Assembly: GCA_028278955.1 (NCBI GenBank) | Contig: JAPYOC010000184.1 | Location: forward strand, 6,683 to 30,682 | Length of the DNA: 24,000 nucleotides | Direction: 5' to 3' | DNA from: Candidatus Poriferisocius aerobius | GTDB taxonomy: Bacteria > Actinomycetota > Acidimicrobiia > Acidimicrobiales > Bin134 | In this document: positions 16,592-24,000 of the stretch, one piece after another | How positions within the stretch are numbered: the stretch's first letter is position 1 | Layout of the letters: each line of letters starts with the position of its first letter | Program-made: the position numbers and the translations under genes | The notes under the pieces: model-generated | Databases searched by the model: none | Told to the model about the DNA's origin: nothing | The model's input: the letters and a program-made list of their open reading frames with translations, nothing else

Positions 16592-18163
16592 CTAGCCGGT
16601 GTTTTCGCCTGCTGAGGCTTCCGCCAGAGCCTCAGATGCGCTTTTCAGCACCTCATTGGCGGCCTCGGCCTCGGCGACTGCTTCTTTCATGTCGGTGAGA
16701 GCCTGATCGGCCCGGCGCTTGGCCTTGTTCTGTGCTTTCTTGGCTTTCGCTGCTTCGGCCTCTCGTTCAGCCAGCGTGGCCGCGGTGCGGTCAACTGCGG
16801 CCGATGCCTTGTCGACGCGTTCTTGTGCTTTTGGTCCTTTGCCCACCGCGTTCGCAGCACGACGGTTGAACCTCTTGACGGCAGCCTGATGTGCTTTGTC
16901 AGCTTTGTCGCGTTTGTCGCTGGCCGCTTCGTAGGCGCGGTGGGCTTTCTGATAGCGCTCGACGAGCCGGGTGGCTTGAGCCTTCTTCTGCTCTGCCCGC
17001 TCATGTGCCGCTATGCCGTCCTGCACGGCTTGTTCGAGCCTGGCGAGAGCCGCAGCTTGGTCTGTTCCTGTGTCTGAGGGGTTCTCGTCGATATCGCCGC
17101 CGGTCTCGGTTGGGCCGTTCGGCAGTGTGCCTTCTGGCTCGGGCACTGGGTCTGGCTCGGGCGCTTTTACGCTGAACTCGGCAGCCAGAACTGTCATCGA
17201 CTCGTGGTAGCCGCCGTAATGCACGCCGTTTACGGCGGCGTGGCCCTTGATTTTCGGACGATTAAGGGCTAGAAGTCCCTGCTGTTGGTCTCCGGCTGGC
17301 ACGGTGAGGCAGTAGGTTGCCGCCGGGTAGCTGCCCCGTTTGCTCTCCCCGCTGGGCAGATAGCCGAAGATCACGCCCTGCTCAACGATGAGAACTCCGT
17401 TGGCGGTCTCGCCCTCAGAAGGCACAACACTTGGTTCATACGAGTCGACGGCAGCGGCGGCAAGGTCTGTGCTGCCCGCGTTGTGCGCCGTGAGTTCAAG
17501 CTGCACTTGGTGCGTAGCGCTGGGTGCAGCCCGGCGACAAGCAGACGTCAGCTCCACTTCGGCAACCGACGCGGTCACAGAGATGTTCTCCACGACAGGA
17601 TCTTTGGAGGGTGCGATATGGAAGGTGCCGCTCAGGGTGGGAACTTTATAGGTATTTTCTATCTTTACTGACCCATGTTCGTTCATGCCATATTCGGTCA
17701 TGTGGAGCTGGGCCTTGTCCATCGACCAGCTCGCAAGCCCGCCGGTCACCCCGCCCGGGCGAATGCTGATGTGCGCCACGCCGTCTGCGTAAGCGCTGTT
17801 CCAGCTTGACGACCTGAGATACCAGCTATAGCTCGCCCCGGTGGACATGCCCTTCGCCGCGCCGCCTAAAGAAGGCCATCCGCCGGGAATGAATCGCAGG
17901 CTGGGCAGGTCGAACCCGCGGACATCGATTCGCAGCCTGAGGCGCGACCCCGGAGTGAACGGATGCGACTCGGAGCCGTCCTGTGTCGCATCGCTCGGGT
18001 TGACCCATTGAGCAACAACGGTCAAGTCGCGGTAGCCGGCCCTGAACGCGGCGCTACCCTCAACCTGCGTACTAGCAGCGGCAGCGCTCGGCGCAGCCCA
18101 CAAGCTGGCGATCAAAAGCACCGCCAGCAATGCACCCAGCAAAGAACGAACTCGAAAAACCAT
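16592..18163 (-). CDS. Secreted protein of unknown function (signal peptide + beta-rich domain + acidic Pro-rich linker + long Lys/Ala-rich helical tail)
   Basis: I chose the ATG at 18161-18163 because it places MVFRVRSLLGALLAVLLIASLWAAPSAAAAS (a classic signal peptide with an AxA site) at the N-terminus. An in-frame ATG at 18265 would add 34 residues. About 330 aa have no recognised motif. Then comes PEPDPVPEPEGTLPNGPTETGGDIDENPSDTGTD, then about 150 aa of predicted helix (AHERAEQKKAQATRLVERYQKAHRAYEAASDKRDKADKAHQAAVKRF...EAEAAKAKKAQNKAKRRADQAL...). No LPXTG motif or C-terminal TM segment. The DNA is markedly AT-richer than the flanks. Confidence 0.8.
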   Translation of the reverse strand: MVFRVRSLLGALLAVLLIASLWAAPSAAAASTQVEGSAAFRAGYRDLTVVAQWVNPSDATQDGSESHPFTPGSRLRLRIDVRGFDLPSLRFIPGGWPSLGGAAKGMSTGASYSWYLRSSSWNSAYADGVAHISIRPGGVTGGLASWSMDKAQLHMTEYGMNEHGSVKIENTYKVPTLSGTFHIAPSKDPVVENISVTASVAEVELTSACRRAAPSATHQVQLELTAHNAGSTDLAAAAVDSYEPSVVPSEGETANGVLIVEQGVIFGYLPSGESKRGSYPAATYCLTVPAGDQQQGLLALNRPKIKGHAAVNGVHYGGYHESMTVLAAEFSVKAPEPDPVPEPEGTLPNGPTETGGDIDENPSDTGTDQAAALARLEQAVQDGIAAHERAEQKKAQATRLVERYQKAHRAYEAASDKRDKADKAHQAAVKRFNRRAANAVGKGPKAQERVDKASAAVDRTAATLAEREAEAAKAKKAQNKAKRRADQALTDMKEAVAEAEAANEVLKSASEALAEASAGENTG

Positions 18164-18295
18164 TTGCTTACCTTTTTTAGAACTCACCTCAGTAAGACTA
18201 GCATTTTCTCGGGGGAGGAGGGCAATGTTCTCCTGTGACAGGCCAACCAGCCATTCTTTTGCCATGGCATCACGGTTGACCTCCTCAGCGGGGCA

Positions 18296-18997: not shown

Positions 18998-19873
18998 GTG
19001 GAGATAGCGCTCGACGGCCCGGTGCTGGCCGTGGATATCGGCGGCACCAAGGTGGCCGTCGGCGTCGTTGCCCCCGACGGGCGAGTGCTCTGCCAACGGC
19101 GGGGGCCGTCTCAGGCCGCTGACGAAGAAGCGCTGTTCGCCCTGGTTGTGGATCTGGCCCAGGCAGCCCTCGAAGATCACGGGCAGCCGGTAGCGGGCTG
19201 CGGCGTGGGCAGCGGCGGGCCGTCCCGGGACAACCACCGGCTGCTGTCGCCCCTCAACATCGCCGTGTGGCGAGACTTTCCCCTTCGAGACCGCCTGTCT
19301 GACGCCCTCGGACTGCCGGTGGCGGTGGACAACGACGCCAAAGCCCTGGCACTGGCCGAGGGCTGGGTGGGCGGCGCCGTCGGAGAGGAGAACTACCTGG
19401 CCATGGTGGTATCCACCGGGATCGGCGGTGGCATCGTGTTGAACGGGCGACTGCTCGACGGCGCTGACGGCAACGCCGGCCATATCGGCCACGTCTTCGT
19501 TATGGAGGGCGGACGGGCCGATGCCGCCGGGGCGGTGGGGCTGTTGGAGGGCCAGGCCTCGGGCACCGCCATCGCCGACCTGCTGGACGGCGCCGCCCCT
19601 GCTGATGCGCCGTTGGAGATGCGCCGTCGAGCGGGCACGTTGGTGGGCCGGGGAGTCGGCTCGGTGGCCAACCTGCTGGATGTGCGCCTGGCCGTGGCCG
19701 GCGGATCAGTGGCCCTGGGCTACGGTGGCGATTTCTTTGATGCTGCCCAAGCCGAGATCGACCGCATCTGCCGTCTAGCCCACTCGCGGGGCGCCCGAAT
19801 CATCCCCAGCCCCCTGGGTGCTGACGGCGGTCTCATCGGCGCCGCCGCCGTGGCCGGCCGGACACTGAGCTGA
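18998..19873 (+). CDS. ROK-family protein (putative sugar kinase), zinc-motif-less variant
   Basis: LAVDIGGTKVAVGVV (ATP-binding DxGxT), VDNDAKALALAEGW, VSTGIGGGIVLNGRLLDGADGNAGHIGH. The GTG start lies 9 nt after the MIP stop, indicating an operon. No N-terminal HTH domain, so it is kinase-type rather than repressor-type. Confidence 0.85.
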   Translation: MEIALDGPVLAVDIGGTKVAVGVVAPDGRVLCQRRGPSQAADEEALFALVVDLAQAALEDHGQPVAGCGVGSGGPSRDNHRLLSPLNIAVWRDFPLRDRLSDALGLPVAVDNDAKALALAEGWVGGAVGEENYLAMVVSTGIGGGIVLNGRLLDGADGNAGHIGHVFVMEGGRADAAGAVGLLEGQASGTAIADLLDGAAPADAPLEMRRRAGTLVGRGVGSVANLLDVRLAVAGGSVALGYGGDFFDAAQAEIDRICRLAHSRGARIIPSPLGADGGLIGAAAVAGRTLS

Positions 19874-19888
19874 GCTCTCCATCGGGGG

Positions 19889-21178
19889 TTAGCCCGCTCG
19901 CTTCGACCACAGGCAGTTCAAAGGGCGCAGGTAGAGGCGGTCGCCGATCTTGCCGTGCTGGTCGCCGGTGTGGAGCAGGATGCCGGCTCGGTAGCGGCCG
20001 GGGGCGACGACATCCAGTTTGTCTCGCAGCCAGGCAAGGTGGTTGAGCTGGGCCCGGCTGGGGGAGCGGGTGGCTTTGATCTCCACCGCGACCACGTCGC
20101 CGTTGGGGGCTTCGAGCACGAGGTCCACCTCGCGGCCCTGGTTGTCGCGGTAGTGCGAGAGGGTCAAGTCGTGCTCTGTGGCGGAGAGCTGACGGGCGAT
20201 CTCGTTCACGGCAAAGGTCTCGAGGAGCGGTCCGGCTGCCGGAGAGGTTGGCGGCATGAGGCCATCAGCGTCAAGCCCCAGGAGGCTGGCAGCGAGGCCG
20301 CTGTCGGTTATGTGGAACTTAGCCCGGCGCAGCGGCCGGGAGGGCAGGTTCCGTGACCAAGCCGGGAGTTCATGGACCAAGAACACTGTCTGCAGCCACT
20401 CGAAGTAGGAGCTGACTACCGGGCGGCTCACCTCCAGCTTTCTCGCAGCGTCTGACAGGTTGACGTGGCTGCTGGTGAGCCCGGCGGTCCAGCGCAGAAG
20501 CGCAGGTAGCGCCGCGGCTTTGCGAATGTCGACGAGCGAGGCGATGTCGCGCTGGGTAACCGTTTCGACGTAGCTGCGGAACCAGCTCCTTCTCCGATGG
20601 GGGGCTAGGCCCACGACCTCCGGGTAGCCGCCTCGGCAAACGAGTTCAAGGTACTCGCTTCGGACCATACCGTCAGCGGGGGGCAGCCGATGTTGGCCGT
20701 CGAACCAGCTCATGATCTCGTTGGGTTGCGAACCGGCCAATTCTGCTTCTGACAGCGGCCACAACCGGAAAATCTGAACCCGTCCCGCCAACGACTCGCT
20801 GATAGATGGAACGGTCAGGAAGTTTGTGGACCCGGTGAGCAGGAACCGGCCTGGTGTCGGCTCGGCGTCCACGAGCTGCTTCACTGCCCGGATGAGCCTG
20901 TTTCCGCCCAGCTGGGCTTCATCCACGACGAGGGGGTGGCGCTGGTTGTCCAGGTAGCTGACCGGGTCGGCTTCGGCCAGCTCTCGCTGCGCCTCATCGT
21001 CCAGGGAGACATAGGTTCCCCCCCGGTTTTCGGCGATTGCCTGGGCCAGGGTCGTTTTGCCGCACTGACGGGCCCCGTGCAGCAACACCACTCGGGACCA
21101 CTCCAAGGCGTCTTGCACTTGGGGCTGAATGTGCCGCCTGACGAACTCCACGCCCTGACTCCAATTGCTGATTGACAA
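19889..21178 (-). CDS. AAA_14/DUF4143-type ATPase with C-terminal PD-(D/E)xK-like segment (COG1373-like)
   Basis: Walker A LLHGARQCGKTTLA and Walker B PLVVDEAQ. The central region is typical of DUF4143 proteins (FRSYVETVTQRDI...LLRWTAGLTSSHVNLSDAARKLEVSRPVVSSYFEWLQ). The C-terminal GREVDLVLEAPNGDVVAVEIKAT resembles a D...E-x-K restriction-endonuclease-fold core. The TTG start lies inside the first of three 12-bp repeats. Confidence 0.85.
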   Translation of the reverse strand: MSISNWSQGVEFVRRHIQPQVQDALEWSRVVLLHGARQCGKTTLAQAIAENRGGTYVSLDDEAQRELAEADPVSYLDNQRHPLVVDEAQLGGNRLIRAVKQLVDAEPTPGRFLLTGSTNFLTVPSISESLAGRVQIFRLWPLSEAELAGSQPNEIMSWFDGQHRLPPADGMVRSEYLELVCRGGYPEVVGLAPHRRRSWFRSYVETVTQRDIASLVDIRKAAALPALLRWTAGLTSSHVNLSDAARKLEVSRPVVSSYFEWLQTVFLVHELPAWSRNLPSRPLRRAKFHITDSGLAASLLGLDADGLMPPTSPAAGPLLETFAVNEIARQLSATEHDLTLSHYRDNQGREVDLVLEAPNGDVVAVEIKATRSPSRAQLNHLAWLRDKLDVVAPGRYRAGILLHTGDQHGKIGDRLYLRPLNCLWSKRAG

Positions 21179-21225
21179 ACTGCATGCTATCTAATTTACA
21201 AAACGCAGTACCACTAATTGACAAA
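21168..21225. repeat. Three phased 12-bp direct repeats (23-bp period) at the 5' end of, and upstream of, the AAA_14/DUF4143 gene
   Basis: Plus strand: CTGATTGACAAA (21168-21179), CTAATTTACAAA (21191-21202), CTAATTGACAAA (21214-21225). Each copy has one mismatch to R3, the spacers are exactly 11 nt, and start-to-start spacing is 23 nt twice. On the coding (minus) strand the unit reads TTTGT(C/A)AAT(T/C)AG. The proximal copy contains the TTG start codon. The surrounding 60 nt (21181-21240) has 26/60 G+C by hand count. Confidence 0.85.
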
Positions 21226-21338
21226 TCGTCGGCCCTTCGCCAGCAGCCACGAAGCAGAGTTCGGCGTGCCTAAAGAACCCGAGTCGTGAACCCCTTTGCA
21301 CACCTTCCGGATTCCTTGGCTTGACCTGCTACACACCG

Positions 21339-23348
21339 CTAGCCCCAGTGGTCGGCTTGGTAGGCCATCATGTTGTCGCCGTGAAGCTGCTTGGTGGCGT
21401 TGCCAGTGCGGACCCAGAACTCAGAGGCTGGGCCTCCTCCTTCAGGTGCCCTGGCGAATACCGGTTTGGCCGAAGCTGAGGCTGTGACGATGCAAACGTC
21501 TGTTCCGGCGTGGCGCTCAAAGTGGATGCGCACTGTTGCCGCGGTTGGAGCGGACAGAGCATTGTCGAGAAGCTGGCGCAAGAAGAGTTCGTAGCCGTCT
21601 GAGTTTCCTTTGCTTCCCAGGGTTCGCATATCGTCGGCGAGCCCGATCGCGTTCGCGTCATCGTCCACTCCGATGAGCAGCTTGCCTCCCTCTGCGTTGA
21701 GGAACCCGCACACTGTCTTGGCGATCACATGCTCTAGCTTCTTATCCGGCCGGCCGGTGTGCAGGTTGAAGCGGGCGGTGGATTTGAATTCGACGGTCTG
21801 CGATTCACCGGCGTCTAGCAGGTCATCCAATGTGAAGGAGGAGTGGCCTTCGCCGGGGCGATCCCACAGGCGTTCAAAGCCACTCCGAGTCACTCTGGCC
21901 ATCAGCGCCCGGCGCTTCTCGAGAAATTCTGGGTATTCCAATTGCTCCCAGCCCACTGGCAGCGCATGCCACTCGATTTGCCGTTGGCGCTGGTCAGGAT
22001 TCAGGCGGCTGGATATTGCTGGCCAGTACTCCATGGGGTCGCTAGCTCCGACATCAGAGTTTTCTGGCCAGTCCAAGAAGGCCATGTTGGCGATGGCGTT
22101 GACCTGTCGAGTTTCGGTGATGCCTCCAGCCTTCAGATGAGCCTTTGGGAAGAGGTGATGGCGCTCGACTGAGCGAGTTGCGCTCTCGCCAGACCTTAGC
22201 AAGTCCCTCATCTTGAGGCTGCTGAACAGGAGTTCGGCATCGAGCAGGTTCAGAGCGGCCCAGTAGGCGCACAGAGCAGGGGATTTGGCTGATGATGTGT
22301 CGAGCCGTGTCGGGAGCGTGACATCCCAGTAGTCGTTTGTGAAGTTGGCTTTGATCTGCCGGTCGAGTTCAGCGCAGAACGCGTCAGGGTTGTTCGGCTC
22401 CAGAGAGCTTATACGGCCCAAGTCGGCATCTAAGGCGGTTTCGCTCGACCCTGTGTAGCGGCCTGTCGTGTGGGCCATGAAGAACCAACGGGCTATCACG
22501 CGCTGAAGAGCCGAGACGCTCAAACCAAAGTTTCGGCGGCCGATCAGCCAGATCACATAGCAGTAGATCAAGGCGGTATCGGATGTGACCATACGCCGCC
22601 CGCGGAAGCCAGCAAGAGTCAGGCACTTGAGGTACTCATGCCAGTTGGTCAGGTCAAGCACCTCGTCTTGGGCCGAGCGCAGCCGTTCAAACTGCTCATC
22701 TCGGCGAGCAGTTGACACTTCTCCGGTGCTGAGGTCCTTGCCTCTGAGAATGCTGTAGACATGCTGGAGGCGGGCTCGGCGGAACGCTAGCCCGACGCTC
22801 GCCCGAAGTAGCTGGTCGGGGCTCGGGTCAATGAAAGCGTTCTTTGGTGACGGGCCCTGCACAGAGGGGTCAACGGCGTCGCGGCTGAATTGCTCGAGTT
22901 CTCTTCGCCCCTTTTCTAGGTGAACTGACATCAGCGTGAGGATGAAGTCTGCTTGGTTGAGCTGCACCCCTTCTGAGTTGATCCGTACGAAGATGTCTGC
23001 GACCTGCTCCTCGTCGGCGTTCGCATTGAGTTGTATGACCTGGAAGCGAAAATCTCTGAGGTCGCGAACGCGATCTATTCTGCCTTCGAGTTCCTCATCC
23101 TCCTCTTCGAGAAGTTCTTTACCCCGGTTCTCGGCCAGCCTGGTCAAGAAGGAGCGCACCGTTGCTCGGTAGCGGTCCTTCCACAGCTCCGTGATGTCGG
23201 GAATGAACTCAGGGTCTTTTCTGATTGCTGCGTCGGCCACCTCGAAGGTTTCGTTGGAGGGGCAGAAGGCGATTTGGATTTGGGCGGCGAGTATAGAGGG
23301 CGCTGATTGTGCTATGCCCCAGAGGTGAATCCATTCTGCTGCTTGCAA
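21339..23348 (-). CDS. GmrSD-like protein: distal DUF262 segment + HH-type DUF1524-like nuclease motif + C-terminal AlbA_2/Schlafen-like domain. The canonical N-terminus is missing, so this may be a 5'-truncated remnant.
   Basis: EEQVADIFVRINSEGVQLNQADFILTLMSV (nt ~22939-23000) matches the conserved distal block of DUF262. RSVERHHLFPKAHL...VNAIANMAFLDWPENSDVGASDP (nt ~22135-22167 for ERHHLFPK) matches the His-His nuclease motif of the GmrSD C-terminal/DUF1524 type. ESQTVEFKSTARF...VIAKTVCGFLNAEGGKLLIGVDDDANAIGL...EFWVRTGNATKQL (nt ~21342-21810) is a textbook AlbA_2 (Schlafen-core-like) domain. No DGQQR or upstream QR motif occurs anywhere in the translation. The only start is a TTG at 23348 with no SD, 29 nt after the upstream gene's stop. 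Confidence 0.8.
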   Translation of the reverse strand: MQAAEWIHLWGIAQSAPSILAAQIQIAFCPSNETFEVADAAIRKDPEFIPDITELWKDRYRATVRSFLTRLAENRGKELLEEEDEELEGRIDRVRDLRDFRFQVIQLNANADEEQVADIFVRINSEGVQLNQADFILTLMSVHLEKGRRELEQFSRDAVDPSVQGPSPKNAFIDPSPDQLLRASVGLAFRRARLQHVYSILRGKDLSTGEVSTARRDEQFERLRSAQDEVLDLTNWHEYLKCLTLAGFRGRRMVTSDTALIYCYVIWLIGRRNFGLSVSALQRVIARWFFMAHTTGRYTGSSETALDADLGRISSLEPNNPDAFCAELDRQIKANFTNDYWDVTLPTRLDTSSAKSPALCAYWAALNLLDAELLFSSLKMRDLLRSGESATRSVERHHLFPKAHLKAGGITETRQVNAIANMAFLDWPENSDVGASDPMEYWPAISSRLNPDQRQRQIEWHALPVGWEQLEYPEFLEKRRALMARVTRSGFERLWDRPGEGHSSFTLDDLLDAGESQTVEFKSTARFNLHTGRPDKKLEHVIAKTVCGFLNAEGGKLLIGVDDDANAIGLADDMRTLGSKGNSDGYELFLRQLLDNALSAPTAATVRIHFERHAGTDVCIVTASASAKPVFARAPEGGGPASEFWVRTGNATKQLHGDNMMAYQADHWG

Positions 23349-23377
23349 GGCGACATGGCTTGGGTACCAGGCAGTCG

Positions 23378-24000
23378 TCAGTCGCTGAAGTTTTGAATTT
23401 TCAGGTGGCGGGACATGGCTGAGCCGGCGGGGCCGAGGAGCATCTGAGCCCGCAGGTGGCGTTTGTGGAACAGTGCGACGAGGGCCTCGTCGTAGCGGGC
23501 GGTGTCGGCGTTGGCCAGTACGAACCGCTCCAGCTCAGCCTCACCTGCCAGCCACGACTCGGGGCGATGGCCCAGCAGCTCGTGGAGGTCGTCAAGGTCG
23601 GCTTCGGAGACGGCGTCGCCGATCTCGTCGATGCGGGCGGCGTGGCGGGCCATGCGGAACATGGTGCGCAGCTTGTAGCGGAGGTATTCGTCTTCTATCT
23701 GTACGGTGCGCAGGTTTCGCACCAGGTGGTTGAGCACCACCTCGGCCCGGGACTCCCGGGGTTCGGGCAGCTCCACCTCGGGCAGCTCCACGTCGAGGAT
23801 CTCGGCGAGGGCCTCGGTGGCGAACAGGTTGGTCTCGTAGCACCACTGGAGGTTGGTCATCAGATCGGAGTCGGGGGCCGGCTGCCGCAGCGCTGCGCTG
23901 AACGGAAGCTGGTTGGAGAGGGTGAACATGAAGTGGTGGCGTTGGATGGCGTCTAGGTCCACCGGCTCTCCGGCCAGCTCTGCGTAGCGGTCGTACAGCT
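23378..24000 (-). CDS. Hypothetical protein, 3' portion (gene continues beyond the window); possibly a C-terminal helical region of a phosphotransferase (APH-like)/DUF6285-like protein
   Basis: The frame is open from the window edge (…LYDRYAELAGEP precedes the GTG at 23962), so this is 5'-partial. It has the high G/C third-position bias of the host genome. The functional guess rests only on a loose pattern resemblance (…Y..L.G.PVD.DAI… followed by a helical segment AEVVLNHLVRNLRTV…LRYKLRTMFRMARH…). Confidence 0.6.
   Translation of the reverse strand, partial: LYDRYAELAGEPVDLDAIQRHHFMFTLSNQLPFSAALRQPAPDSDLMTNLQWCYETNLFATEALAEILDVELPEVELPEPRESRAEVVLNHLVRNLRTVQIEDEYLRYKLRTMFRMARHAARIDEIGDAVSEADLDDLHELLGHRPESWLAGEAELERFVLANADTARYDEALVALFHKRHLRAQMLLGPAGSAMSRHLKIQNFSD

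What the first reader, a model, noticed from the sequence alone, without database searches (positions are those of the whole stretch)
19889..23348. Two-gene accessory module with three nuclease-like or nucleic-acid-sensing domains: candidate defence locus
Two co-oriented minus-strand genes sit between host-like high-GC genes (ROK kinase on one side, the 23378+ gene on the other). The first is the GmrSD-like/AlbA_2 protein. The second is an AAA_14/DUF4143 ATPase whose tail (EVDLVLE...VAVEIKAT) looks like a PD-(D/E)xK core. They are separated by a 160-nt AT-rich spacer holding a phased repeat array. An ATPase coupled to nuclease domains plus a putative nucleic-acid sensor is the typical parts list of anti-phage systems. 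As far as I know, COG1373-type DUF4143 ATPases have no assigned biological role. No integrase, tRNA or flanking direct repeat is visible, so the means of acquisition is unclear.
Basis: inference. Interest (0 to 1): 0.6.

Follow-up and report, generated by a model that had tools for sequence, protein, structure and literature searches.

The report
Broken restriction gene beside candidate ATPase
Between two housekeeping genes of a sponge-associated actinobacterium lie an intact gene of a very common but untested candidate phage-defence family and, next to it, the decaying remnant of a restriction-type defence gene; they are two independent tenants of a variable spot, not a new two-gene system.

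Summary
Both ORFs, their domains and the repeat-bearing spacer are real. The reading as one two-gene defence module is not supported.

**ATPase (19889-21151, minus strand).** It is intact and under purifying selection. It matches PADLOC candidate PDC-S01 (AAA_14 + DUF4143) at E=9.5e-143. The family is catalogued but untested.

**GmrSD-like/AlbA_2 ORF (21339-23348).**
- It is a 5'-deleted copy of a 758-aa family: a BrxU-like GmrSD core plus a Schlafen-type domain.
- That architecture is already validated as anti-phage (EcoSlfn7).
- It lacks about 110 residues, including both DUF262 NTPase motifs, and its own promoter.
- Every near-identical allele shares the junction. Three of eight carry a second break.

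**Independence of the two genes.**
- Congeners have the site empty, with the ATPase only, with the GmrSD gene only, or with both.
- No ATPase lies within 8 kb in 39 of 45 loci of the GmrSD family.
- GC3 is 0.44 versus 0.80.

**The repeat array.** The three 12-mers at 23-nt phasing belong to the ATPase gene. Orthologues carry 3-6 units. In this genome, 7 of 14 paralogues have their own 23-nt array, against 0 of 2140 control genes. Earlier notes of this scan report such arrays in many other genomes.

The two genes are new members of known kinds, of modest interest.

The parts
19889..21151 (-). Intact AAA_14/DUF4143 ATPase-nuclease gene (PADLOC candidate PDC-S01), 420 aa from GTG 21151.
   Evidence: Pfam. 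PADLOC PDLC04790 at E=9.5e-143. Start aligned to the orthologues' ATG and to the 420-aa public call. dN/dS 0.15-0.21 against orthologues. All 6 near-identical alleles are intact.
19922..20236 (-). C-terminal PD-(D/E)XK nuclease-like domain of the ATPase (residues about 306-410 of the 420-aa protein), with D343, E357 and K359.
   Evidence: These residues are invariant in 40 homologues. The AF2 model shows alpha-beta3-alpha-beta topology. Card1 and Can2 appear among the fold hits. Supported by PMC3424549 and PMC12988326.
21168..21225 (-). Array of three 12-mers (TTTGTCAATTAG, TTTGTAAATTAG, TTTGTCAATCAG on the minus strand) at exact 23-nt phasing, ending 16 nt upstream of GTG 21151. Likely an operator of the ATPase gene.
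   Evidence: Conserved with 3-6 units upstream of orthologues in G011, G017, G013, L027, L033 and G014, and left as an orphan in G015. Unique in the genome.
21152..21338 (-). Intergenic spacer (GC about 0.53) holding the ATPase leader, the repeat array and a GGAG Shine-Dalgarno 7 nt before GTG 21151.
   Evidence: No sigma-70 consensus promoter or terminator was found by the simple scan.
21339..23283 (-). Remnant of a GmrSD-Schlafen (DUF262-HNH-AlbA_2) gene, homologous to residues about 110-758 of full-length 758-aa relatives.
   Evidence: 87% nt identity to G015 over 21338-23283 only. GC3 0.44.
22059..22166 (-). His-Me finger (HNH-like) motif ERHHLFPK...N...N...N of the GmrSD core, retained in the remnant.
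   Evidence: E484, H486, H487, P490, N506, N510 and N519 are invariant in 37 full-length homologues and present in the window ORF. Pfam GmrSD_C was not detected. The full-length model aligns with BrxU over 673 columns.
21342..21806 (-). C-terminal AlbA_2/Schlafen-type domain with ESQTVEFK (the E-x4-E-x-K motif) and GVDDD.
   Evidence: Pfam SLFN_AlbA_2 at 5.9e-15. The family profile hits SLFN14, 8, 11 and 12. Fold hits to DIP2311 and SLFN13, 14 and 11. Motif as described in PMC13056530.
23284..23377 (-). Deletion junction: 94 nt not homologous to the GmrSD family. It supplies the TTG at 23348 and the first 21 codons of the ORF. The gene's own promoter, start and first ~110 codons (DIQRPFVW and DGQQR motifs) are missing.
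   Evidence: The syntenic locus L033 has the full-length gene 112 nt after the APH stop. All 8 near-identical alleles share the junction, and one has a frameshifted leader.
18998..19873 (+). ROK-family gene, the conserved left flank of the variable site.
   Evidence: Pfam ROK at 1.5e-41. Syntenic in G011, G015, G017, G020, G022 and L033.
23378..24000 (-). 3' part of an APH-family phosphotransferase-like gene (511 aa, runs beyond the window), the conserved right flank.
   Evidence: Pfam APH at 2.6e-08 on the full ORF in L072. 88-90% nt identity in G011, G017, G020 and L033.

Best explanation
The segment is a small variable spot between two convergent housekeeping genes (ROK and an APH-like gene) in a sponge-associated Acidimicrobiia genome. 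It holds two unrelated single-gene defence-type elements in different states.

1. **An intact, selected AAA+ / winged-helix / PD-(D/E)XK ATPase-nuclease of the PDC-S01 candidate family.** It comes with its own 23-nt-phased repeat array. By inference, this array is an operator bound by the protein's own winged helix for self-regulation. By inference from its parts, the protein oligomerises on DNA using ATP and cuts nucleic acid. Its target and trigger are unknown.

2. **The remnant of a GmrSD-Schlafen gene.** When intact, this is a BrxU-like type IV restriction core (DUF262 NTPase plus His-Me finger nuclease) fused to a Schlafen-type RNase domain. Here it has lost its promoter, its start and the NTPase motifs through a deletion of about 350 nt. 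It is most likely a non-functional pseudogene on the way out.

The adjacency is inherited from an ancestral arrangement at this site in part of the clade. It does not reflect functional coupling.
For: **Truncation (shown).**
- Full-length relatives are about 758 aa. The window copy begins at their residue ~110.
- The syntenic locus L033 has the order APH, full-length gene, array, ATPase, ROK, MIP.
- No N-terminal piece of this family lies elsewhere in the 92.85%-complete assembly.

**Decay (shown).** Eight alleles at 96% identity or more, recorded from several sources and contigs, share the junction. Three also break inside the AlbA_2 domain, and one has a frameshifted leader.

**DGQQR is essential (literature).** Q79A and R80A abolish HEC-06 defence.

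**Family identity (shown).** The model fits BrxU at E=2.8e-9 and then Schlafen and AlbA_2 structures. The family profile also hits Schlafens. The DUF262-Slfn fusion EcoSlfn7 reduces T7 plating about 540-fold.

**ATPase (shown).** PDC-S01 match at 9.5e-143. Walker A/B and D...ExK are invariant. The model has pLDDT 86.6, with fold hits to Orc1/Cdc6, RFC and RuvB. dN/dS is 0.15-0.21.

**Independence (shown).** See for presence and absence, for GC3 0.44 versus 0.80, and for dS 1.52 versus 0.38.

**The array belongs to the ATPase (shown).**
- It travels with the ATPase in G011 and G013, where no GmrSD gene is adjacent.
- 7 of 14 paralogues have a phased triple scoring at least 8 of 12 at period 23, against 0 of 2140 control ORFs.
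Against: - The remnant is still an open frame of 669 codons in 5 of 8 alleles, with both nuclease motif sets intact.
- Its dN/dS against the closest full-length relative (0.14) is only slightly above the family range of 0.05-0.12. The deletion is therefore recent, or some function persists.
- It could be transcribed by read-through from the co-oriented APH gene 30 nt upstream.
- The order GmrSD, array, ATPase recurs in the window, L033, L027 and G014, and as a relic in G015. That is more than copy number alone predicts, although these loci share ancestry.
- No defence phenotype has been shown for any PDC-S01 member.
- Binding of the array by the ATPase is inference only.
- Neighbouring cargo in relatives is mostly metabolic, so defence-island context is weak.
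Confidence: 0.7

Rival explanations
1. The two genes form one functional two-gene defence system in this clade. The ATPase would act as sensor or motor and the GmrSD-Schlafen protein as effector, or the reverse.
For: The genes share orientation and sit about 110-260 nt apart. The order GmrSD, array, ATPase recurs in the window, L033, L027 and G014, and as a relic in G015. Six of about 21 Acidimicrobiia loci have an ATPase within 8 kb, against roughly 1.4 expected from copy number (the expectation is my own estimate).
Against: - Intact GmrSD genes occur without the ATPase in G015, G017, G020 and G022. An intact ATPase occurs without GmrSD in G011.
- Outside the class, none of the loci has an ATPase within 8 kb.
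- The ATPase has its own leader and array in the spacer.
- GC3 and dS are discordant between the two genes.
- PADLOC models PDC-S01 as a single gene, and a DUF262-Slfn fusion works alone in E. coli.
- The positive loci share ancestry and are not independent.
Confidence: 0.08
2. The truncated 669-aa protein is still made and works as a stand-alone HNH plus Schlafen effector, or as a dominant partner of other DUF262 proteins, without its NTPase half.
For: The frame is open for 669 codons. The His-Me and E-x4-E-x-K/D motifs are intact. dN/dS is 0.14. The truncated allele is the only form found among near-identical alleles from several assemblies. Two other loci (L057, L063) are also 5'-truncated, at residue ~171.
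Against: - The remnant has no own promoter and no Shine-Dalgarno before TTG 23348.
- DGQQR is required in tested GmrSD-like proteins.
- Three of eight sister alleles have lost the C-terminal half of the Schlafen domain, and one has a frameshifted leader.
- Sister alleles carry E-to-K, Q-to-K and N-to-K changes inside the family's conserved INSEGVxLNQADF block.
Confidence: 0.15
3. The DUF4143 ATPase is not a defence gene. It would be a self-regulating, sequence-specific DNA-binding ATPase-nuclease with another role, such as a selfish or addiction-type element or a regulator. Its expansion in this genome would reflect its own proliferation.
For: - G000 has 22 DUF4143 matches in 2.48 Mb, against 0-11 in 80 other Actinomycetota genomes. 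Congeners have 1-31 matches to the ATPase.
- Many copies carry stops or are fragments, and several sit at contig ends.
- Each copy has a private array.
- Neighbours are mostly metabolic.
- No experimental defence phenotype has been reported.
Against: - No inverted copies of the array or other transposon-like ends were seen.
- No integrase was identified among the ORFs whose families I scanned near the segment; the window's other ORFs were not scanned.
- The gene has host-like GC3 (0.80) and is under purifying selection.
- The family was picked up by PADLOC's guilt-by-embedding approach.
Confidence: 0.25

Closest known systems
BrxU / GmrSD-family type IV restriction enzymes (PDB 7P9K; HEC-05 in PADLOC)
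   Same: Full-length relatives of the 21339-23348 gene share three features with BrxU: the DUF262 domain with DGQQR, a long helical linker, and a His-Me finger nuclease motif. The model aligns with BrxU over 673 columns at E=2.8e-9. The family profile matches at 5.1e-14, and HEC-05 at 9.3e-36.
   Different: The family carries an extra C-terminal Schlafen/AlbA_2 domain of about 170 aa. Pfam GmrSD_C is not detected. The window copy lacks the first ~110 residues, including the DIQRPFVW and DGQQR motifs.
Prokaryotic Schlafen fusions, DUF262-Slfn class (EcoSlfn7; Nat Microbiol 2026, PMC13056530)
   Same: The domain logic is the same: DUF262 fused to a Schlafen nuclease domain carrying the E-x4-(E/D)-x-K motif (here ESQTVEFK). 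That class is shown to protect E. coli against T7 and other phages.
   Different: The paper does not say whether EcoSlfn7 also carries the HNH core. The window copy is truncated and probably inactive.
PADLOC phage-defence candidate PDC-S01 (AAA_14 + DUF4143; COG1373)
   Same: The match covers the full length (residues 11-426 against model positions 10-420 of 422) at E=9.5e-143. The architecture is the same: an ATPase fused to a PD-(D/E)XK domain.
   Different: Nothing structural differs. The family itself is only a candidate with no published phenotype. This genome has an unusually large set of paralogues (22 DUF4143 matches).
Iteron arrays with their Rep initiators, and Orc1/Cdc6 with origin repeats (general knowledge; PDB 2QBY among the fold hits)
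   Same: Both are direct repeats phased at about two helical turns (22-23 bp) next to the gene of a winged-helix protein. The ATPase model resembles AAA+ plus winged-helix initiators.
   Different: No origin function is indicated. There are more than 20 copies per genome. The protein carries a nuclease domain. Binding has not been tested.

Membership tests
GmrSD / BrxU-type type IV restriction enzymes | N-terminal DUF262 (GmrSD_N) domain with the DGQQR NTPase motif | tested here: not met
   The window ORF matches only profile positions 103-195 of 199, at 31.5 bits against a 33.2-bit cut-off. DIQRPFVW and DGQQR are absent. Full-length relatives score 117 bits and have both motifs.
GmrSD / BrxU-type type IV restriction enzymes | C-terminal DUF1524-type His-Me finger (HNH) nuclease motif | tested here: inconclusive
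   ERHHLFPK...N...N is invariant in the family and present in the window. However, there is no Pfam GmrSD_C hit, the model has low confidence at residues 474-527, and the PDB profile alignment of this region to BrxU is not significant.
GmrSD / BrxU-type type IV restriction enzymes | Overall fold like a solved member | tested here: met
   For the full-length relative P0003, Foldseek gives BrxU 7p9k_A at E=2.8e-9 over 673 aligned columns. The window copy would lack the first third of DUF262.
Prokaryotic Schlafen (pSlfn) defence proteins, DUF262-Slfn class | Schlafen/AlbA_2 domain with the E-x4-(E/D)-x-K motif and a downstream acidic residue | tested here: met
   SLFN_AlbA_2 at 5.9e-15. ESQTVEFK and GVDDD are present, with E604, E609, K611 and D652 invariant. 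The profile hits SLFN14, 8, 11 and 12. Motif definition from PMC13056530.
Prokaryotic Schlafen (pSlfn) defence proteins, DUF262-Slfn class | Intact fused DUF262 sensor or regulator domain | tested here: not met
   The DUF262 domain is deleted up to family residue ~110 in the window copy. It is intact in relatives.
Prokaryotic Schlafen (pSlfn) defence proteins, DUF262-Slfn class | Protection against phage; tRNA cleavage | not testable with these tools
   This needs plaque assays and RNA analysis.
PADLOC PDC-S01 (AAA_14 + DUF4143 ATPase-nuclease) | Full-length match to the PDC-S01 HMM | tested here: met
   PDLC04790 at E=9.5e-143 and 473.9 bits, covering residues 11-426 against model positions 10-420 of 422.
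PADLOC PDC-S01 (AAA_14 + DUF4143 ATPase-nuclease) | P-loop ATPase with Walker A and B, followed by DUF4143 with the PD-(D/E)XK residues | tested here: met
   AAA_14 at 3.5e-22 and DUF4143 at 7.2e-36. G31, K32, T34, D77, E78, D343, E357 and K359 are invariant. Model topology is consistent.
PADLOC PDC-S01 (AAA_14 + DUF4143 ATPase-nuclease) | Embedding in, or clustering with, known defence systems | tested here: inconclusive
   Here the gene sits next to a degraded GmrSD-type gene. In relatives the neighbours are mostly metabolic, plus one PIN gene. Only a few neighbours were scanned.
PADLOC PDC-S01 (AAA_14 + DUF4143 ATPase-nuclease) | Anti-phage phenotype | not testable with these tools
   No validation of the family is reported in the papers read.

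The most novel reading that the evidence does not exclude
The ATPase, not the pair, is the interesting unit. Each of the 20 or so DUF4143 paralogues in this small genome carries a private array of boxes at exactly 23-nt phasing in front of its start codon.

This suggests that every paralogue is a sequence-specific, self-recognising AAA+ / winged-helix / nuclease protein that docks on its own iteron-like operator. The family would then be a diversified set of DNA-word readers whose specificity can be read off the genome.

I found no publication describing this in the papers searched. Earlier notes of this scan report the same feature in many other genomes.
Probability: 0.5. Interest if true: 0.7.

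Novelty: new member of a known kind. Interest (0 to 1): 0.3.

Why it matters
As a candidate new two-gene defence system, the finding does not hold. It resolves into a known candidate family and a degraded member of a validated one.

Three things remain useful:

1. It is a clean natural series of gain, loss and decay of defence-type genes at one chromosomal site in uncultivated sponge symbionts. The same site occurs empty, with one gene, with the other, with both, and with remnants.
2. The large GmrSD-Schlafen family (more than 7000 proteins at E ≤ 0.001, mostly about 758 aa) combines a BrxU-like core with a Schlafen domain, and so links two validated defence lineages.
3. The repeat array belongs to the PDC-S01 ATPase. 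It recurs with paralogue-specific sequence at fixed 23-nt phasing. This gives an experimental handle (binding and autoregulation assays) on one of the most abundant untested defence candidates.

Tried and rejected
- **Sequencing runs.** `look-up of sequencing runs` was not available. Expression of the truncated ORF and coverage across the junction could not be checked.
- **Sequence search of the ATPase against solved structures.** It gave only P-loop matches.
- **Rfam scan of 19500-24000.** Nothing meaningful.
- **Consensus promoter and terminator scan.** No promoter found, and one terminator-like site, which is below chance.
- **Flanking repeats as insertion scars.** A possible direct repeat flanking the GmrSD insert (GGGTTCAC-like words near 21290 and 23320) was considered. 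It is not supported by `repeat finder`.
- **Origin of the junction.** The 94-nt junction could not be aligned convincingly to the intergenic DNA of L033 or G011 beyond the APH stop. The deletion end-points are therefore approximate.
- **Transposon-end reading of the array.** Rejected: no inverted copies occur anywhere in the genome.
- **A split GmrS/GmrD arrangement, with the N-terminal piece encoded elsewhere.** Rejected for this assembly. The only other DUF262 match (C191) is itself broken by a TGA.
- **dN/dS among the truncated alleles.** This would date the decay, but it could not be computed.
- **Generality of the 22-23-nt arrays outside this clade.** Only partly supported: 4 of 29 loci score strongly. 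The feature is not universal with this simple statistic.

Full report
**1. What is there**

The window is G000:C95:6683-30682 of a 2.48-Mb metagenome-assembled genome (MAG), 92.85% complete, in 225 contigs. Its relatives are named as sponge-associated Acidimicrobiia (Ca. Poriferisodalis, Ca. Poriferisocius, Sva0996).

Two minus-strand ORFs lie between a ROK gene (18998-19873, +) and an APH-family phosphotransferase-like gene (from 23378, -):
- 19889-21178
- 21339-23348

GC falls to 0.555-0.60 across about 21000-23400, against 0.65-0.72 in the flanks. By gene:

| Gene | GC3 |
|---|---|
| GmrSD-like ORF | 0.44 |
| ATPase | 0.80 |
| ROK | 0.81 |
| APH-like | 0.87 |
| MIP | 0.87 |

Only 3.6% of 2-kb windows in the genome have GC as low as the GmrSD-like gene. 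There is no tRNA gene in the window and no convincing flanking repeat.

**2. The ATPase**

*Family.* Pfam gives AAA_14 and DUF4143. PADLOC gives a full-length match to candidate PDC-S01 at E=9.5e-143.

*Start codon.* The start is probably GTG 21151 (420 aa). It aligns with the ATG of the orthologues and equals the public gene call P0122. A GGAG lies 7 nt upstream.

*Conserved residues.* In 40 homologues, Walker A (G31, K32, T34), Walker B (D77, E78) and D343, E357, K359 are invariant.

*Structure.* An AlphaFold2 model (pLDDT 86.6, pTM 0.89) shows four parts:
- an AAA+ core
- a helical lid
- a winged helix at about residues 232-281
- an alpha-beta3-alpha-beta domain at 306-410, carrying D343 on strand 2 and E357-x-K359 on strand 3

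Foldseek finds Apaf-1, RFC, Orc1/Cdc6 bound to origin DNA, RuvB, and the CARF-nucleases Card1 and Can2.

*Literature.*
- DUF4143 is listed among the PD-(D/E)XK families with unknown function (PMC3424549).
- PDC-S01 is described as an ATPase fused to a PD-(D/E)XK domain. It is the fourth most common defence candidate in prokaryotes and has not been validated (PMC12988326).

*Selection.* The gene is under purifying selection, with dN/dS 0.15-0.21 against G011 and L033. All six near-identical alleles in public assemblies are intact.

**3. The GmrSD-like gene is a remnant**

*Size of the family.* More than 7000 homologues were found at E ≤ 0.001. Most of the best hits are about 758 aa and cover 97% of the window ORF.

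*What is missing.* The alignment shows that the window copy lacks the first ~110 residues, including the DIQRPFVW and DGQQRLTS motifs. Its first 21 residues are unrelated sequence. At DNA level, homology to every relative stops at 23283.

*The intact version of the same locus.* Locus L033 (OZ220703.1) is syntenic over more than 10 kb. It carries the full-length gene 112 nt after the APH stop, followed by the array, the ATPase, ROK and MIP. The window lineage therefore lost about 350 nt, comprising the promoter, the start and 110 codons.

*No N-terminal piece elsewhere.* None of this family exists elsewhere in the assembly. The only other DUF262 match is itself interrupted by a TGA.

*The deletion is real and inherited, not an assembly artefact.* Eight alleles at 96-100% identity, recorded under NCBI, JGI/IMG and Logan on contigs of differing length, all share the junction. 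Among them:
- three end prematurely inside the AlbA_2 domain
- one has a frameshifted leader
- several carry E-to-K, Q-to-K and N-to-K changes in the family's conserved INSEGVxLNQADF block

*Timing.* Against the closest full-length relative, dN/dS is 0.14, compared with 0.05-0.12 within the family. Most of the divergence therefore predates the deletion.

*Other truncated copies.* Two further loci (L057, L063) are truncated independently at residue ~171.

**4. What the intact family is**

- Full-length P0003 scores 117 bits on GmrSD_N and matches SLFN_AlbA_2 at 1e-15. It matches HEC-05 (BrxU type) at 9.3e-36.
- The family profile hits BrxU (7P9K) at 5.1e-14. It hits Schlafens 14, 8, 11 and 12 at 1e-5 to 2e-4.
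- The model (pLDDT 71, weak around the HNH region) fits BrxU over 673 columns. It then fits DIP2311, SLFN13/14/11/5 and the SAMD9 DNA-binding domain.
- Invariant residues include E484, H486, H487, P490, N506 and N510 (His-Me finger), and E604, E609, K611 and D652 (the Schlafen E-x4-E-x-K motif plus an acidic residue).
- Many plasmid homologues stop at residue ~583 and so lack the Schlafen domain.

*Published work.*
- DGQQR mutants of HEC-06 lose defence, and BrxU is a type IV enzyme (bioRxiv 2024.01.29.577857).
- DUF262-Slfn fusions make up 1.8% of prokaryotic Schlafens. One of them, EcoSlfn7, lowers T7 plating about 540-fold (PMC13056530).

The architecture is therefore known and validated. 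The window copy fails the DUF262 criterion.

**5. Are the two genes a module?**

*Presence and absence at the same site among congeners.*

| Genome | State of the site |
|---|---|
| G020 | ROK and APH 18 nt apart; site empty |
| G011 | array plus ATPase only |
| G015 | full-length GmrSD gene plus an orphan array, with the ATPase gone; a 64%-identical paralogue and a PIN gene lie upstream |
| G017 | APH next to ROK; an ATPase carrying a TAG stop lies beyond it; the GmrSD gene is about 8 kb away |
| G022 | GmrSD gene about 7 kb from ROK |
| L033 | both genes intact |
| L027 | GmrSD gene followed by an internally deleted ATPase |

*Frequency in the genus.* Only 5 of 24 sampled congeners have an orthologue of the GmrSD gene (at least 83% identity, E = 0 in the table). 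All 24 have ATPase paralogues, with 1 to 31 matches each.

*Across phyla.* Of 45 loci of the GmrSD-Schlafen family, six have a DUF4143 ATPase within 8 kb. All six are Acidimicrobiia.

*Different histories.* Between the window and L033, dS is 0.38 for the ATPase and 1.52 for the GmrSD gene. The GmrSD allele has been exchanged.

*Context.* Neighbours in relatives are mostly metabolic: xanthine-dehydrogenase-type, TauD, ABC-F and hydantoinase genes.

*Conclusion.* The adjacency is a clade-specific inheritance at a variable spot. Each gene is kept or lost on its own.

**6. The repeat array**

- Three 12-mers lie at 21168-21225 with exact 23-nt spacing. They are unique in the genome.
- Orthologues carry 3 to 6 units at the same phasing, with a conserved core (TTTGYMAAnTAG) and variable spacers. 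The arrays end about 15-30 nt before the start codon: G011 has 5 units, G017 has 5, G013 has 3 perfect units, L027 has 3, L033 has 6 and G014 has 4.
- The array stays with the ATPase where no GmrSD gene is adjacent (G011, G013). It survives as an orphan in G015. It therefore belongs to the ATPase unit.
- Divergent paralogues in G000 (30-35% identity) have their own, different arrays at the same 23-nt period.
- Statistic: identity across three phased copies, counted within a 12-nt window, for periods 18-29.
  - 7 of 14 paralogues score at least 8 of 12 at period 23.
  - 11 of 14 have 23 as their best period.
  - Of 2140 control ORFs, 26 reach 8, and none of those at period 23.
- In a wider sample, 4 of 29 loci score strongly at 22-23 nt. 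Two of them are plasmid genes of Novosphingobium and Spartinivicinus.
- Inference: the array is a self-operator read by the protein's winged helix.
- Earlier notes of this scan describe the same kind of array (periods 22, 23 and 33 nt) in many other genomes. That is not independent support, but it means the feature is not new to the scan.

**7. Verdict**

The locus is accessory and of defence type, but it is not a module.

Most likely reading (0.7): an intact PDC-S01 ATPase-nuclease with its own operator, next to a pseudogenised GmrSD-Schlafen restriction gene. The mechanisms of the ATPase (ATP-driven assembly on DNA, cleavage by the PD-(D/E)XK domain, autoregulation through the array) are inferred, not shown.

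Novelty: new members of known kinds. Interest is modest.

Noticed in passing
G000 contigs C79:3706-5109(-), C206:3429-4802(-), C27:2072-3421(+), C182:9487-12230, C23:3-1349(-): Divergent DUF4143 ATPase paralogues each carry a private array of 3-4 boxes at exactly 23-nt phasing just upstream of the start, for example TGCAAAGTGGAG x3 and ATAATATCGCGA x3. With the window gene and counting C182 as two genes, 7 of 14 paralogues score strongly, against 0 of 2140 control genes at that period.
   Followed up: partly
whole G000 assembly: G000 has 22 DUF4143 matches in 2.48 Mb, against 0-11 in 80 other Actinomycetota genomes sampled. Congeners have 1-31 matches to the ATPase. Several copies are fragments or carry stops, and about eight sit at contig ends, which suggests assembly breaks at variable or repeated regions.
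   Followed up: partly
G000:C95:31396-31680 (about 0.7 kb beyond the window end; L072:1494-1778): A 94-aa ORF matches only the last ~35 residues of the ATPase family, upstream of and overlapping the APH-like gene's 5' end. It may be a relic of another ATPase copy. In G017 an ATPase sits in that position.
   Followed up: partly
window 16592-18265 (-): A 557-aa ORF with GC 0.61 and no Pfam or PADLOC hit. No nucleotide homology was found in congeners, which carry other cargo (in three of them the GmrSD-Schlafen gene) between the homologues of ~16.4 kb and the MIP gene. This is a second variable spot.
   Followed up: partly
L057:7956-9761 and L063:7986-9755: Two further GmrSD-Schlafen genes, in an Acidimicrobiales MAG and an Alphaproteobacteria MAG, are 5'-truncated at almost the same residue (~171-172), with no N-terminal piece nearby. 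Loss of the DUF262 half seems recurrent.
   Followed up: partly
L025:8813-8998 (G011, between the APH stop and the ATPase array): One reading frame of this intergenic DNA looks like a fragment of an ion-channel transmembrane segment (WAIWGAFAVEYLYLLYLAP). This would be another gene relic at the same hotspot. The reading is by eye only.
   Followed up: no
G000:C191:294-791 (+): A second DUF262 (GmrSD_N, 76 bits) match in the genome is interrupted by a TGA, so it is another broken GmrSD-type gene.
   Followed up: no
L058:7121-7588 (G015): A PIN-domain (VapC-like) gene lies between the ATPase paralogue and the full-length GmrSD-Schlafen gene in G015. It is the only other defence- or toxin-type neighbour seen.
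   Followed up: no
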